Sequence record: HM035025
Direction: 5' to 3' (one strand)
DNA: 64,000 bases
DNA from: Shigella phage Shfl2
Below, one piece after another: positions 3,781-36,482 of this stretch. Position 1 is the stretch's first letter; each line of letters starts with the position of its first letter. Made by a program: the position numbers and the translations under genes. The notes beneath the pieces are model-generated. The model ran no database searches. It saw only the letters and a program-made list of their open reading frames with translations, and had not been told where the DNA came from.

Positions 3781-4590
3781 ATGCTTAAAGAACAACTGAT
3801 TGCTGAAGCGCAAAAAATTGATGCTTCCGTTGCTCTTGATAGTATTTTCGAATCAGTTAATATTTCTCCGGAAGCAAAAGAAACTTTCGGCACTGTATTC
3901 GAAGCTACCGTCAAGCAGCACGCCGTTAAATTAGCTGAATCTCATATCGCTAAAATTGCTGAAAAAGCAGAAGAAGAAGTAGAAAAAAATAAAGAAGAAG
4001 CCGAAGAAAAAGCTGAGAAGAAAATCGCTGAGCAAGCTTCTAAATTCATCGACCATCTTGCGAAAGAATGGCTCGCCGAAAATAAATTAGCAGTTGATAA
4101 AGGCATCAAAGCCGAACTGTTTGAATCCATGCTTGGTGGATTAAAAGAGCTCTTTGTTGAACACAACGTTGTTGTTCCAGAAGAATCAGTTGATGTTGTA
4201 GCTGAAATGGAAGAAGAGCTGCAAGAACATAAAGAAGAATCAGCTCGTCTGTTCGAAGAACTCAATAAGCGTGACGCATATATCAATTATGTGCAGCGTG
4301 AAGTGGCATTGAGCGAAAGTACTAAAGATCTGACTGAGTCTCAAAAAGAAAAAGTCTCTGCTCTGGTCGAAGGTATGGATTATTCAGATGAATTCTCAAG
4401 TAAATTGAGTGCCATCGTAGAAATGGTGAAGAAGTCTAATAAAGATGAAAGCACTATTACTGAGGGTATAAATACTCCTGATACTGAAGCAGCCGGACTG
4501 AATTTCGTCACTGAAGCTGTAGAAGATAAAGCTGCACCTGGTGCAGAAGATATTGTAAGTGTATATGCGAAAGTCGCATCTCGTTTCTAA
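3781..4590 (+). CDS. 22: Prohead core scaffold protein gp22
   Basis: 269 aa, acidic coiled-coil-like composition (EEEVEKNKEEAEEKAEKK), T4 gp22 length and position. Confidence 0.9.
   Translation: MLKEQLIAEAQKIDASVALDSIFESVNISPEAKETFGTVFEATVKQHAVKLAESHIAKIAEKAEEEVEKNKEEAEEKAEKKIAEQASKFIDHLAKEWLAENKLAVDKGIKAELFESMLGGLKELFVEHNVVVPEESVDVVAEMEEELQEHKEESARLFEELNKRDAYINYVQREVALSESTKDLTESQKEKVSALVEGMDYSDEFSSKLSAIVEMVKKSNKDESTITEGINTPDTEAAGLNFVTEAVEDKAAPGAEDIVSVYAKVASRF
4467..4474 (+). promoter_or_regulatory. Late promoter (TATAAATA) inside gene 22, likely serving gene 23
   Basis: Exact TATAAATA within 3' part of gene 22, 134 nt upstream of gene 23 ATG. Confidence 0.55.
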
Positions 4591-26265: not shown

Positions 26266-26452
26266 AGTAATCTAGTGGTAAGAGAGTACGATATATTTCA
26301 AACTTTGGTCCTTTTTCATAGGCATCAAATGTTTCTGTAAATTTATTATAAGCGTATGCATCTACAAATTCGAGAATGACTTGTGATACAGAAGTAGAAA
26401 CATCTCCACCTTCTTTTTGAGCAATGACAATTGTTTCTAAGTAAGCTTTCAT
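26264..26452 (-). CDS. Hypothetical small protein
   Basis: 62 aa, start overlaps gene 30 stop. Confidence 0.45.
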   Translation of the reverse strand: MKAYLETIVIAQKEGGDVSTSVSQVILEFVDAYAYNKFTETFDAYEKGPKFEIYRTLLPLDY

Positions 26453-27912
26453 AGACCAGTTACCTCATGAAAATCACCAAATACATCCTCGAATGTATTA
26501 GCTTTAGTTTTATCTTCACGTAAACGAATCGCAATCGGAAGAAATAATTTAACGTAATCAGTGCGGCCATCAGATTTTAACCAACCGTTGCATTCGCACT
26601 CTAGAATTTTTCCAATATAATAATTTTGGTTTTCCATAATGCGAGTACGGTCAAGCTCATGTGATTTTACGCCGGCTTTATCTTTTAAGCCTGAACCAGC
26701 ATTTACTTTAATTTTTCCACACTCTGACTCAAGAATAAATCCACCCGCTTTGGTAGGGTCTTTACGGTGAGGATAAATTCCTACAATTTTTAAATCAACA
26801 TCAATTACTTCTTTAAATTTATAAAGATTTTTTGAACGAGCATTTTCCCATAATCCATCGATATTTTTGAGAATAATACCTTCAAGACCTTGGTCAATAT
26901 ACTTTTTATAAATTACCTTAGCTTCATCTAGGTTATTTACTATCTGGTTTTCAATTAAAATTACTTTATCATAACCTGATGTCATTTGTTCTAGTTTAGA
27001 AAAACGTACATCATATTTCAAACGAAATGCAGGAAGACCGTATATTTCTACCAACGGGACATAATCCCAGACCTGAAACTTCATGCATTTGGCTTCTTTT
27101 TCGGAAATGGTTCCTTTTAAGGATTTATTGGCGATTCCATTAGAAGCAGTACGAGATTCCGCTACTTCGGCGAATTCTTTAGCTTTACTAATTTCAGGAT
27201 AAGCATCAAAAAGAAAATCTAGGCCTTCTGGTTCCTTTTTAACTTGCTCATGGTATACCAATTCGCCATCAATTAACACACCTTCTGGATGAATCTGACG
27301 AGCTTCAGCAGTCATTTTAATTAACTCTTCCTTAAGAAGATCTAATCCTAGATATTCATTACCAGCTCGTGATAAAAGACGAACATCATCTAATTCATCA
27401 CCTCTAACTTCAGCAAAACACCGAGCTCCATCTGCTTTTAACTGCGCAAAGGCTGGAAACTTGATATTCTTATTAATGCCTTTTTCATCATAAGAACTTG
27501 CCAGCATTTGAGGTTGTTCAGGAATTAAACCTGGCCAAACTTTGTTTGCAATAGATACTGAAGCACCGCATTCAAGGTCTCGCATCATCACTCGACGCAA
27601 AACTTCAACATCATCTTTTTTACCGTCAGCAATATATCCAGTCAATTCCTCAATTGCCGCATTTCCAGTCAATTTCCGAGTAGCTAATGTGAATTCAATG
27701 AAGTCAAGCATATCGGTAAGAGTCAACATTCCAAAACTCTGGGTAGCAATACCAGGTTTAGGCCATTTCTTGATATAATACTGTAACCCACGAGAATAAG
27801 TCAGACGATATACTCGTTTAAGCAATTCATTATCTTTATTCTTTTCAAGAATTGCTTGCTTCTGCTTAGTTGAACCAATAGATGCTATTTCATTCAGAAT
27901 TTTAAGAATCAT
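26449..27912 (-). CDS. 30: ATP-dependent DNA ligase gp30
   Basis: 487 aa, same length as T4 DNA ligase, T4 position next to alt. Confidence 0.95.
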   Translation of the reverse strand: MILKILNEIASIGSTKQKQAILEKNKDNELLKRVYRLTYSRGLQYYIKKWPKPGIATQSFGMLTLTDMLDFIEFTLATRKLTGNAAIEELTGYIADGKKDDVEVLRRVMMRDLECGASVSIANKVWPGLIPEQPQMLASSYDEKGINKNIKFPAFAQLKADGARCFAEVRGDELDDVRLLSRAGNEYLGLDLLKEELIKMTAEARQIHPEGVLIDGELVYHEQVKKEPEGLDFLFDAYPEISKAKEFAEVAESRTASNGIANKSLKGTISEKEAKCMKFQVWDYVPLVEIYGLPAFRLKYDVRFSKLEQMTSGYDKVILIENQIVNNLDEAKVIYKKYIDQGLEGIILKNIDGLWENARSKNLYKFKEVIDVDLKIVGIYPHRKDPTKAGGFILESECGKIKVNAGSGLKDKAGVKSHELDRTRIMENQNYYIGKILECECNGWLKSDGRTDYVKLFLPIAIRLREDKTKANTFEDVFGDFHEVTGL

Positions 27913-28178
27913 TGTTCATCCTTTAGAGTTTGGTTTACAGCTCTATTATAAATCAATTCATCATTAAGCTCAGGCAAAGACTTATGATATGTAGTTCTAA
28001 CTTTATTTCCTTGCATCCAGTGCTTGACGTAAATGAAACCTTGCTCTACACATTTTTTAAAAATTCGTTCGTCTTTTTGAGCTCGGAATTCTGGATTGCA
28101 TCTAAAAAATTGATTTACGTGACCGTAATCACGTGTAGTATTACCTTCATTTTCATAAATAGTGTGAACAACAAACAT
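27909..28178 (-). CDS. Hypothetical protein
   Basis: 89 aa, coupled start/stop overlaps in operon. Confidence 0.55.
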   Translation of the reverse strand: MFVVHTIYENEGNTTRDYGHVNQFFRCNPEFRAQKDERIFKKCVEQGFIYVKHWMQGNKVRTTYHKSLPELNDELIYNRAVNQTLKDEQ

Positions 28179-29047
28179 TAGAATGCTCCTTGGAAAATAT
28201 TATCACCACTACCACTAGTAAGTCTATTAAAATACCCTGCATCACCAGGCTTAGTATAACTCCACGTATGAAATGGATTCATATGATACGGGTGTGTATA
28301 ATATGGATTATATGGATGTGTATAATATGGATTATACGGATTAAATCCAGGAGTTCTCCAGGTAGTGTTCCAACGAAAAGAATCGTTTTTAACCATCTTC
28401 TCAATTACATCTTTTATAGCTTTTTCACTATCAAAACTTTCTTTATTTTCCTTCGGTGAAAAAAGCTTATTTTCTACATCATTCCATGTATAAACTCGCT
28501 GCGCAGTTTTTGGAATATTGTCACGCTCTCCTCGAGCCATCCAATAAACAGGAACATTTAATATTTCACTCGCATGATCGCAGTGGTAAGCAAGATCGTC
28601 AATGTAACAAATTACGTTATATTTCTCTTTTGCCTTTTTGAACAACTCTTCTTTTGAAGAATCATGACCACACATCATTACTTCTGAGAAGGCACCAGGA
28701 AAAAGAGCATTCAAATTAAATTGACGATTCAACAGAGCGTCAATAGAATCACCCAATGCTGTAACAGCTACAAAATTATAATCTTCTTTTAATTTGTTAA
28801 TTACACACAGTGCATCTTTATATGGAGACAAATAACGAATAAAATCTGATCGATTATATTTTTCAATTAACTTGACACCAAGTTCTTCATCACAATTAAA
28901 GAGTTTACCCGGAGAAATAAATTTCTCATCTTGGATCATTTTTAAAATATGTTCTAACGGAAGATTATATTTCTGAGCAAAATAAGGAAGGCCTGATTGC
29001 CAGCTTAAACATACTCCATCAATATCAGTCAAAATAGTAGGCTTCAT
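28178..29047 (-). CDS. HAD-superfamily phosphatase / nucleotidase-like protein with C-terminal Pro/Tyr/His-rich tandem repeat
   Basis: 289 aa; N-terminal DIDGV (HAD motif I-like); C-terminus NPYNPYYTHPYNPYYTHPYHMNPFH. Confidence 0.65.
   Translation of the reverse strand: MKPTILTDIDGVCLSWQSGLPYFAQKYNLPLEHILKMIQDEKFISPGKLFNCDEELGVKLIEKYNRSDFIRYLSPYKDALCVINKLKEDYNFVAVTALGDSIDALLNRQFNLNALFPGAFSEVMMCGHDSSKEELFKKAKEKYNVICYIDDLAYHCDHASEILNVPVYWMARGERDNIPKTAQRVYTWNDVENKLFSPKENKESFDSEKAIKDVIEKMVKNDSFRWNTTWRTPGFNPYNPYYTHPYNPYYTHPYHMNPFHTWSYTKPGDAGYFNRLTSGSGDNIFQGAF
28293..28340. repeat. Tandem direct repeat, 2 x 24 bp
   Basis: tgtgtataatatggattata(t/c)gga repeated head-to-tail; encodes the PYNPYYTH repeat on the minus strand. 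Confidence 0.85.
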
Positions 29048-29508
29048 AGAGAGTCTCTTAATAGGTTTAACACATCAATAAATTCAGCTTCGGTTAGTAT
29101 TGTATCATCTTTTGTTAGACCACTAGCCATGCTGTGCTTCAAAACTTTTCCTTTCGAGGCTTGTAATGCATCGCGAAAGCCCTTGTTTTGGAACGCTGCT
29201 TCAAAATATGCATTTGTGTATAATTCTTTCCACGCCGGGGAGTATCTTGAAAACGGAACTCCAATCCAGAAGAGGGTCCCACGGTCCTGAGCTCTTGCAT
29301 AAGACCTTCCAGCTTGTTGGGCGGCAAGCCCGGATAATCCAAATATACGACGTTGTTGTTCAACATTTTTCACCTTGCATCCTTGGAGGAATCCTTCAAG
29401 ACCTCCAAATTGAATACCATCCATGACGAAAGGCCATTGGGCGAAATTGCTTAATGCACATGATGGCCATCTAAAATTGCTTCTAATCTCTAACTCAGAC
29501 ATTTTCAA
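29044..29508 (-). CDS. NADAR (YbiA-like) domain protein, putative ADP-ribose-processing enzyme
   Basis: 154 aa; LSNFAQWPFVMDG...LEGFLQGCKV resembles the NADAR signature FSNFAAWP..VDG...EHYFQAQK as I recall it. Confidence 0.6.
   Translation of the reverse strand: MKMSELEIRSNFRWPSCALSNFAQWPFVMDGIQFGGLEGFLQGCKVKNVEQQRRIFGLSGLAAQQAGRSYARAQDRGTLFWIGVPFSRYSPAWKELYTNAYFEAAFQNKGFRDALQASKGKVLKHSMASGLTKDDTILTEAEFIDVLNLLRDSL

Positions 29509-35257: not shown

Positions 35258-36482
<1,225 letters not shown>

What the first reader, a model, noticed from the sequence alone, without database searches (positions are those of the whole stretch)
28178..29047. HAD-like nucleotidase ORF with a Pro/Tyr/His-rich C-terminal repeat encoded by a 24-bp tandem DNA repeat
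Seen: the ORF starts with DIDGV (HAD motif I-like) and ends with NPYNPYYTHPYNPYYTHPYHMNPFH. The underlying DNA at 28293-28340 is a 2 x 24 bp direct repeat with one mismatch. Inference: a recently expanded, slippage-prone repeat appended to an enzyme domain; such aromatic/His-rich tails can mediate metal binding or protein interaction. The enzyme assignment rests on a single motif.
Basis: partly seen in the sequence, partly recalled or inferred. Interest (0 to 1): 0.4.

Follow-up and report, generated by a model that had tools for sequence, protein, structure and literature searches.

The report
Phage phosphatase with repeat-variable tail
This ORF is the T4-type phage gene 30.2, a conserved HAD-family, nucleotidase-like phosphatase. 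Its disordered C-terminal tail changes length between phage isolates by gain or loss of a 24-bp in-frame repeat; the enzyme is ordinary, but relatives' tails carry a short peptide motif also found in an unrelated phage protein that likewise sits next to DNA ligase.

Summary
ORF 28178-29047 (-) encodes 289 aa starting MKPTILTDIDGV. 28293-28316 and 28317-28340 are 24-bp tandem copies with one mismatch, the top-scoring tandem repeat in the window. One correction: the ORF runs 29 residues past the repeat.

The window is a Tequatrovirus and the ORF is the orthologue of T4 gene 30.2, within alt-30-30.1-30.2-30.3. Residues 1-195 are a HAD phosphatase: all four motifs are conserved (D8/D10, T96, K132, D150-D151), the model is confident, and there are 121 PDB fold hits. 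The nearest family is NT5C deoxyribonucleotidase, but membership is borderline and no activity is known.

Residues 221-289 are predicted disordered. The 8-residue unit occurs in 1, 2 or 3 copies in natural isolates. About 57 GenBank phages carry two copies, so this is a stable allele in a slippage-prone tract, not an artefact or a private recent expansion. The tail is under weaker but real constraint. Family-wide it is Trp/Pro-rich, not His-rich, so metal binding is unsupported.

Unexpected: many relatives' tails end in GIEY[LW]YN[QR]PT. That motif also occurs in an unrelated ligase-adjacent family in Salmonella phage 7-11-like viruses. It may be a docking motif; it is degenerate in this window.

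The parts
28178..29047 (-). CDS, orthologue of T4 gene 30.2 (289 aa; stop codon at 28178-28180)
   Evidence: ORF list. Synteny and 90-94% protein identity with T4-type 30.2. PHROG 420, E 3e-88.
28463..29047 (-). HAD phosphatase domain, residues 1-195: Rossmann-like core plus helical C1 cap (about residues 16-86)
29018..29026 (-). HAD motif I, D8-I-D10 (nucleophile and general acid/base Asp)
   Evidence: Invariant in 99 homologues; lies at the end of strand 1 in the model.
28388..28429 (-). Helix, residues 207-220, linking the domain to the tail
   Evidence: AF2 secondary structure, pLDDT about 89. The corresponding helix is 194-223 with pLDDT about 94 in homologue P0042.
28181..28387 (-). Predicted intrinsically disordered tail rich in Tyr/Pro/Asn/Thr/Trp, residues 221-289
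   Evidence: pLDDT 37-60. Composition. dN/dS 0.15-0.41. Hypervariable or absent in homologues.
28286..28341 (.).
   Evidence: Copy number is 1 in D5505, 2 here, 3 in BYEP01, and 2 plus 9 bp in RPN226.
28217..28246 (-). Degenerate copy (G268-DAGYFNRL-T277) of the family's C-terminal motif G-[IL]-E-Y-[LWY]-x(1-3)-[QR]-P-T
   Evidence: Alignment of Tequatrovirus alleles: T4-type GGIEYLYNRPT against T2-type and window GDAGYF-NRLT. The motif is conserved in about 17 of 58 long tails.
28205..28216 (-). SGSG: a second small in-frame repeat (6 bp x 2); a single SG in SH-1, SH_GT and others
29044..29508 (-). Upstream neighbour 30.3 = AdfN (NADAR); its stop overlaps the 30.2 start (ATGA)
   Evidence: Pfam PF08010, E 1.7e-69. 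PMC11825919. Overlap.
27909..28178 (-). Downstream neighbour 30.1 (DUF3045); its start overlaps the 30.2 stop (TAATG)
   Evidence: Pfam PF11243, E 5.6e-63. Overlap.
26449..27912 (-). Gene 30, ATP-dependent DNA ligase, the conserved neighbour of 30.2 homologues
   Evidence: Ligase lies within 0-2 genes in 6 of 6 distant loci.

Best explanation
The ORF is the orthologue of T4 gene 30.2. Residues 1-195 form a Mg2+-dependent HAD-superfamily phosphomonoesterase with a helical C1 cap. Its nearest relatives are the NT5C 5'(3')-deoxyribonucleotidases, so it most likely dephosphorylates a (deoxy)nucleoside monophosphate or a similar small phospho-metabolite within the phage's DNA and nucleotide metabolism module (inferred; no assay exists). 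One helix follows, then a disordered tail of about 70 residues. The tail's length changes between isolates by replication slippage or unequal recombination at short in-frame repeats. The 24-bp unit seen here in two copies exists in 1, 2 and 3 copies in nature (shown). In relatives, the tail most plausibly acts as a flexible tether presenting a short C-terminal docking peptide, GIEY[LW]YN[QR]PT, to an unknown partner (inferred). In this window's T2-type allele that peptide is degenerate (GDAGYF-NRLT). Here the repeat is best read as tolerated length variation in a linker, not as a functional module in itself.
Confidence: 0.55

Rival explanations
1. The tail is an essentially functionless, relaxed appendage. 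The repeats are slippage noise, and the reading frame is kept only because ribosomes must reach the 30.2 stop to couple translation into 30.1.
For: 41 of 99 homologues lack a tail, and the tails are unalignable between genera. There is frequent indel variation. KMB42 is viable with a truncated tail. The 30.2 stop and 30.1 start overlap as TAATG. The tail's dN/dS is several-fold higher than the domain's. The canonical motif has decayed in the T2-type allele carried by this window.
Against: Tail dN/dS is still 0.15-0.41, below 1. TWRTPGFNPYN and NIFQGAF are invariant across the full-length Tequatrovirus alleles sampled. A 10-residue motif is conserved across genera and in a second protein family despite synonymous divergence.
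Confidence: 0.3
2. One reading: the His- and aromatic-rich repeat is a metal-binding module appended to the enzyme.
For: The window's distal tail has 4 His and 9 Tyr in 64 residues, and each repeat unit contributes one His.
Against: His is depleted in distal tails family-wide (0.62x relative to the domain), while Trp (3.4x), Pro (3.3x) and Thr (2.2x) are enriched. His positions are not conserved even among Tequatroviruses, where H and Q exchange in HPYQTHPFQ against HPYHMNPFH. The region is predicted disordered. HAD enzymes bind their Mg2+ through motifs I and IV, not through tails (established knowledge of the superfamily).
Confidence: 0.04
3. gp30.2 is the unidentified T-even-specific factor that AdfN (gp30.3) needs for full anti-DarTG1 activity, or it processes an ADP-ribose-derived product.
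For: 30.2 overlaps 30.3 by ATGA. PMC11825919 proposes that an extra phage factor is needed for AdfN function. Alt (an ADP-ribosyltransferase) and AdfN flank the cluster.
Against: Among six diverse 30.2 loci, PF08010 is adjacent in only two, one of which is a 91-aa fragment. 30.2 is therefore far more widely distributed than AdfN and tracks ligase instead. The paper mapped resistance to 30.3 alone.
Confidence: 0.06
4. gp30.2 is a nucleic-acid end-processing phosphatase (for example a 3'-phosphatase) that prepares nicks for the adjacent ligase, like the HAD domain of T4 Pnkp.
Against: The model has a large helical C1 cap over the active site. In the HAD superfamily that is typical of small-molecule enzymes, whereas Pnkp-type polynucleotide phosphatases are capless (established knowledge). 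The sequence affinity lies with NT5C through the cap itself. T4-like genomes already encode Pnkp (PF25109 genes).
Confidence: 0.05

Closest known systems
NT5C family: cytosolic and mitochondrial 5'(3')-deoxyribonucleotidases (cdN/mdN; Pfam PF06941) and bacterial homologues such as 3bwv
   Same: HAD core with DxDGV motif I, T, K and DD motifs, and a four-helix C1 cap of similar length. Profile-profile match through the whole cap. Invariant or near-invariant W16, F43 and Y64 align with cdN F18, F44 and Y65; I recall these as base- and sugar-contacting residues but could not verify that here. Similar size (about 195 aa).
   Different: Below Pfam's threshold. Only the N-terminal half aligns at profile level. 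Carries an extra helix plus a disordered tail that NT5C proteins lack. Substrate untested.
Dtm_PBS1 (A0A223LEB8), the dTMP phosphatase of Bacillus phage PBS1
   Same: A phage-encoded enzyme with an mdN-like fold despite low sequence identity, shown to be a Mg2+-dependent dNMP phosphatase that reshapes the nucleotide pool (PMC12697855). It is the best functional analogy.
   Different: Not recovered among the top 50 viral fold matches. It serves dU-DNA synthesis, which T4-like phages do not perform. No tail was reported.
T4 polynucleotide kinase/phosphatase (Pnkp) HAD domain
   Different: Pnkp's phosphatase is capless and acts on polynucleotide 3' ends; gp30.2 has a C1 cap.
Salmonella phage 7-11 gp042 family (phrog_38244, function unknown)
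   Same: Shares the peptide GIEYWYNQPT in a Gly/Pro-rich, probably disordered context, and lies next to an ATP-dependent DNA ligase gene.
   Different: No HAD domain: it has a helical N-terminus and a CPxCG..GAH[FY]C knuckle instead. The phage family is unrelated (Grimontviridae). There is no DNA similarity outside the motif.
Short linear motifs on disordered tails of replication proteins, such as clamp-binding C-terminal peptides of T4 gp43, gp33 and gp55 (recalled, not tested)
   Same: A short conserved peptide at the end of a variable, disordered segment, shared by unrelated proteins.
   Different: The sequence is unlike known clamp- or SSB-binding motifs, and no partner has been identified.

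Membership tests
HAD (haloacid dehalogenase-like) superfamily | Motif I, DxD, at the end of strand 1 | tested here: met
   D8 and D10 are invariant in 99 homologues; strand 4-7 precedes them.
HAD (haloacid dehalogenase-like) superfamily | Motif II, Thr/Ser at the end of strand 2 | tested here: met
   T96 is at least 90% conserved, at the end of strand 91-96.
HAD (haloacid dehalogenase-like) superfamily | Motif III, conserved Lys | tested here: met
   K132 is invariant, immediately before helix 133-142.
HAD (haloacid dehalogenase-like) superfamily | Motif IV, acidic DD or DxxxD at the end of strand 4 | tested here: met
   D150-D151 are invariant in 37 sequences and at least 90% conserved in 99, at the end of strand 145-150.
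HAD (haloacid dehalogenase-like) superfamily | Rossmannoid HAD fold | tested here: met
HAD (haloacid dehalogenase-like) superfamily | Mg2+-dependent phosphoryl transfer through an aspartyl-phosphate intermediate | not testable with these tools
   Needs an enzyme assay.
NT5C 5'(3')-deoxyribonucleotidase family (PF06941) | Scores above Pfam's gathering threshold | tested here: not met
   No Pfam hit for the query at E<=1. 24 of 99 homologues hit NT5C only weakly, best E 1.2e-4. P0022 scores 12.1 bits against a cut-off of 24.8.
NT5C 5'(3')-deoxyribonucleotidase family (PF06941) | Homology detectable at profile level, including the specificity-determining cap | tested here: inconclusive
   HHalign gives probability 88%, E 3e-6, over 97 columns (motif I, cap, motif II), but the C-terminal half is not aligned and the NT5C alignment was patchy. 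PDB profile hit to cdN at E 0.08.
NT5C 5'(3')-deoxyribonucleotidase family (PF06941) | Aromatic residues that sandwich the nucleobase (cdN F18/F44/Y65, from memory) | tested here: inconclusive
   W16, F43 and Y64 align to them and are invariant or at least 90% conserved. The role of the cdN residues could not be verified in the paper library.
NT5C 5'(3')-deoxyribonucleotidase family (PF06941) | dNMP phosphatase activity | not testable with these tools
   No published assay of gp30.2 was found.
T4 gene 30.2 orthologous group (PHROG 420) | Sequence membership and synteny between 30.3 and 30.1/ligase | tested here: met
   PHROG 420, E 3e-88, residues 1-275. 90-94% identity to the T4-type protein. 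Same gene order as T4T.
Short linear docking motif on a disordered tail | Conserved short peptide within non-conserved, disordered sequence, recurring in unrelated proteins | tested here: met
   for the family. In this window's allele the motif is degenerate.
Short linear docking motif on a disordered tail | A defined binding partner | not testable with these tools
   No complex prediction or interaction data were available. A monomer AF2 model gives pLDDT about 54 at the motif.

The most novel reading that the evidence does not exclude
GIEY[WL]YN[QR]PT is a portable docking peptide that recruits otherwise unrelated accessory proteins to one hub of the phage DNA replication and repair machinery. 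Those proteins are the gp30.2 phosphatase in T4-like Straboviridae and the zinc-knuckle gp042 in 7-11-like Grimontviridae. The hub could be the ATP-dependent DNA ligase that both are encoded beside, or a shared enterobacterial host factor. The repeat-driven length changes and the motif decay seen in T2-type alleles such as this window's would then be evolutionary tuning or loss of that tether.
Probability: 0.2. Interest if true: 0.7.

Novelty: new variant of a known kind. Interest (0 to 1): 0.4.

Why it matters
Gene 30.2 is one of roughly 100 T4 genes with no assigned function (PMC11825919). It is strongly conserved (dN/dS about 0.05) and sits beside DNA ligase across all T4-like phages examined. 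Showing that it is a complete, NT5C-like HAD phosphatase gives a directly testable biochemical hypothesis: a phage dNMP phosphatase that, with T4 thymidine kinase and dNMP kinase, could form a substrate cycle or clear an unwanted nucleotide. The tail is a clean natural example of in-frame copy-number variation in a disordered linker. The motif shared with an unrelated ligase-adjacent protein offers a handle for finding a new interaction hub in phage replication. For the specific finding as written, though, the content is mostly ordinary: a known phage ORF, an enzyme assignment already made by some annotators, and a modest repeat polymorphism.

Tried and rejected
- **Direct sequence searches.** Pfam and NCBIfam give nothing for the query. 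phmmer against the PDB gives nothing meaningful.
- **Literature.** No paper on gp30.2 function was found. The other '30.2' text hits were a DOI and an HPLC gradient time.
- **cdN/mdN residue roles.** I could not verify them in the library, so they are marked as recalled.
- **AdfN-cofactor idea.** Disfavoured by gene co-occurrence, 2 of 6 loci.
- **30.2-30.1 fusion as a functional link.** Only one real fusion exists (P0012, on a short contig). The phiR1-RT-type extensions are not DUF3045.
- **Nucleic-acid-level role for the repeat.** Promoter-like sites are at chance (9 found, 8.1 +/- 2.7 expected), there are no terminators, and the RNA fold z-score is -1.7.
- **Motif docking back onto the HAD domain.** A second AF2 model with a canonical-motif homologue leaves it at pLDDT about 54.
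- **Recent DNA transfer of the motif between the two families.** Rejected: flanks are 24% identical and 3 of 10 third codon positions match.
- **Other carriers of the motif.** None among the other ORFs of the window. None beyond the two families in IMG/VR or metagenomes, and none in 185,579 bacterial and archaeal genomes.
- **Ligase adjacency within 7-11-like phages.** This is conserved synteny and counts as one observation. One relative (P0172) has the motif gene without an adjacent ligase.

Full report
**1. The observation**

The minus-strand ORF 28178..29047 encodes 289 aa beginning MKPTILTDIDGV. 28293-28316 and 28317-28340 differ at one base. Tandem Repeats Finder extends the array to 28286-28341 (period 24, 2.3 copies, score 98). 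It is the highest-scoring tandem repeat in the 64-kb window; the only others score 59 and 57.

In codon register the unit encodes P-Y-N-P-Y-Y-T-H twice (residues 237-252), and the two copies differ only at two synonymous sites. One detail of the finding is wrong. The protein does not end at ...HMNPFH; it continues for 29 residues (TWSYTKPGDAGYFNRLTSGSGDNIFQGAF).

**2. What the locus is**

The region matches 652 phage records, almost all Escherichia, Shigella or Yersinia Tequatroviruses, at up to 97.6% identity. The T4T annotation gives the gene order alt, alt.1, 30 (DNA ligase), 30.1, 30.2, 30.3, identical to the window. The ORF is therefore the orthologue of T4 gene 30.2, annotated 'hypothetical protein' in T4. 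It belongs to PHROG 420, of unknown function (E 3e-88).

The genes are chained by start/stop overlaps: ATGA between 30.3 and 30.2, TAATG between 30.2 and 30.1. The upstream gene 30.3 is AdfN, a NADAR ADP-ribosylglycohydrolase that counters DarTG1 (PMC11825919). No paper on the function of 30.2 was found.

**3. The enzyme domain**

The query has no Pfam or NCBIfam hit. An alignment of 99 homologues nevertheless shows all four HAD motifs:

| HAD motif | Residues | Conservation |
|---|---|---|
| I | D8-x-D10 | invariant |
| II | T96 | at least 90% |
| III | K132 | invariant |
| IV | D150-D151 | at least 90% |

**4. Is it a nucleotidase?**

Evidence in favour:
- A profile of the family hits only one PDB sequence family, mouse cytosolic 5'(3')-deoxyribonucleotidase, at E 0.08.
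- HHalign against an NT5C alignment gives 88% probability (E 3e-6) over 97 columns covering motif I, the whole cap and motif II.
- NT5C is the most frequent weak Pfam hit among members, 24 of 99.
- The deoxyribonucleotidases (3bwv, cdN, mdN) have the best rmsd and target-normalised TM-scores.
- W16, F43 and Y64, invariant or nearly so, align with cdN F18, F44 and Y65. I recall these as nucleoside-contacting residues but could not verify that here.
- A phage precedent exists. Dtm_PBS1 has an mdN-like fold at 16% identity and is a proven Mg2+-dependent dTMP phosphatase (PMC12697855).
- Many phage proteins named '5' nucleotidase' share the fold, and some GenBank annotators already.2 orthologues HAD hydrolase or deoxyribonucleotidase.

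My verdict is that this is a HAD phosphatase (about 0.95). A nucleotide substrate is the best guess (about 0.55) and is untested.

The domain is under strong purifying selection (dN/dS 0.01-0.08). Its homologues lie within 0-2 genes of an ATP-dependent DNA ligase in 6 of 6 diverse loci, whereas AdfN is adjacent in only 2 of 6. That argues against an obligate AdfN partnership.

**5. The tail and the repeat**

After the domain comes a helix (207-220), then residues 221-289 with pLDDT 37-60. A second model, of a homologue from a Klebsiella phage, shows the same layout.

Among homologues, 41 of 99 have no tail. The rest have tails of 35-148 residues that cannot be aligned between genera. Distal tails are enriched in Trp (3.4x), Pro (3.3x) and Thr (2.2x) and depleted in His (0.62x), so His-mediated metal binding is not a family property.

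Within Tequatroviruses the tail is a hotspot of in-frame indels:

| Variant | Phage(s) | Protein length |
|---|---|---|
| 24-bp unit, 1 copy | D5505 | 279 aa |
| 24-bp unit, 2 copies | this window | 289 aa |
| 24-bp unit, 2 copies | SH-1, SH_GT | 287 aa |
| 24-bp unit, 2 copies plus an extra 9 bp | RPN226 | 290 aa |
| 24-bp unit, 3 copies | BYEP01 | 295 aa |
| HPY once or twice | T4 against T6 and PM105 | 278 against 281 aa |
| SG once or twice | SH-1 against this window | 287 against 289 aa |
| 46-bp out-of-frame duplication, truncated tail | KMB42 | 253 aa |

An 85-bp probe across the duplication finds 59 records, about 57 at the two-copy length and 31 identical. The duplication is thus a real, inherited allele of one sub-lineage. 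It is neither an artefact nor private to this phage, but the tract is demonstrably slippage-prone.

Tail dN/dS is 0.15-0.41: relaxed relative to the domain but still constrained. 20 of 21 sampled alleles remain in frame, although translational coupling to 30.1 could contribute to that. Nothing suggests a DNA- or RNA-level role for the repeat.

**6. An unexpected motif**

About 17 of 58 long tails, from several genera, carry G-[IL]-E-Y-[LWY]-x(1-3)-[QR]-P-T roughly 8-12 residues from the C-terminus. T4 has GGIEYLYNRPT.

A 36-position profile of this region was searched against 1.84 billion representative proteins. It returned only two hits at E<=1e-3: a family member, and P0169 (E 1.9e-4), a 152-aa non-HAD phage protein containing GTGIEYWYNQPTS. 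Its homologue in Salmonella phage 7-11 (Grimontviridae), gp042, contains GGIEYWYNQPTA and lies directly after, and overlapping, the ATP-dependent DNA ligase gene.

In that family the motif is the best-conserved element, present in 8 of 10 members that otherwise share about 35-50% identity. It follows a CPxCG..GAH[FY]C knuckle and a Gly-rich linker. Ligase is adjacent in 7-11, L040, L044 and in the loci of P0174, P0177 and P0178, but not in P0172's. Because these phages are syntenic, this counts as one independent observation.

Degenerate back-translated pattern scans find the strict motif only in these two families in IMG/VR (8 hits) and in metagenomes (2 hits), and nowhere in 185,579 prokaryotic genomes. 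At the DNA level the two families share nothing beyond what the peptide forces: flanks are 24% identical and 3 of 10 third codon positions match. The peptide is therefore conserved or convergent, not recently transferred.

This is the signature of a short linear motif. Its partner is unknown, and ligase or a shared hub is only a hypothesis.

In the window's own T2-type allele the motif is degenerate (GDAGYF-NRLT). In the 21 alleles sampled, the T2-type group also shows the most repeat variation. This is compatible with relaxed constraint after motif decay, but it is speculative.

**7. Verdict**

The feature is real. The enzyme assignment is right at superfamily level and plausible at family level. 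The repeat is a true polymorphic in-frame tandem duplication in a disordered linker.

As written, the finding is a moderately ordinary property of a known but uncharacterised T4 gene. The motif shared with an unrelated ligase-adjacent protein is the one element that could lead somewhere new.

Noticed in passing
window 29044-29508 (-): Gene 30.3 = AdfN, the NADAR ADP-ribosylglycohydrolase that neutralises the DarTG1 defence (Pfam PF08010, E 1.7e-69; PMC11825919). It is full length here, unlike the frameshift-truncated RB69 allele, so this phage is predicted to be DarTG1-resistant. The internal out-of-frame ORF 29139-29366 (-), 75 aa, corresponds to T4's annotated 30.3'.
   Followed up: partly
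window 27909-29508 (-): 30.3, 30.2, 30.1 and 30 are chained by start/stop overlaps (ATGA at 29044-29047, TAATG at 28176-28180, a 4-nt overlap at 27909-27912). This suggests translational coupling, which could by itself select for keeping the 30.2 tail in frame.
   Followed up: partly
L034:1489-1860 (Salmonella phage 7-11 gp042); L040:7939-8343; L044:3259-3663; proteins P0169-P0178: A small phage protein family (phrog_38244, function unknown). It has a helical N-terminus, a CPxCG..GAH[FY]C zinc-knuckle-like segment, a Gly-rich linker and the peptide GIEYWYNQPT, and is encoded directly after the ATP-dependent ligase in 7-11-like phages. The peptide is shared with gp30.2 tails of T4-like phages.
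   Followed up: yes
L013 (Escherichia phage vB-Eco-KMB42, OR539221): A 46-bp out-of-frame tandem duplication within the 30.2 tail truncates the protein to 253 aa. It is either a natural tail-less variant or an assembly error, and shows the tract also undergoes larger duplications.
   Followed up: partly
L030 (Escherichia phage vB_EcoM-RPN226, OL770073): Besides the extra 9-bp PYN unit in 30.2, this record annotates 30.1 as two small ORFs and a shortened 30.3, suggesting frameshifts or sequencing errors in the neighbouring genes.
   Followed up: no
protein P0012 (302 aa, metagenomic): An in-frame fusion of the 30.2 HAD core with a DUF3045 (gp30.1) domain (Pfam E 8e-15). It is a single case on a 1.4-kb contig, so only a weak hint of a 30.2-30.1 functional link.
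   Followed up: partly
proteins P0065, P0068 (Yersinia phiR1-RT type) and P0084: Some 30.2 homologues replace the Trp/Pro-rich tail with other C-terminal extensions: a segment of about 110 aa that looks globular, and a Cys-rich end (…CVGCSKEG…CGGAPWCCP). Neither matches any Pfam family.
   Followed up: partly
window 3971-4011 and 36433-36472: Two other weak tandem repeats (21 bp x 1.9 and 21 bp x 2.0; TRF scores 59 and 57).
   Followed up: no
L025, L026 (distant T4-like loci): In Shewanella and Acinetobacter T4-like phages, the 30.2 homologue sits in a block with Pnkp (kinase plus HAD phosphatase), dCMP deaminase, a NUDIX protein (in the Acinetobacter phage) and ligase. This is consistent with a nucleotide and DNA-end metabolism module.
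   Followed up: no
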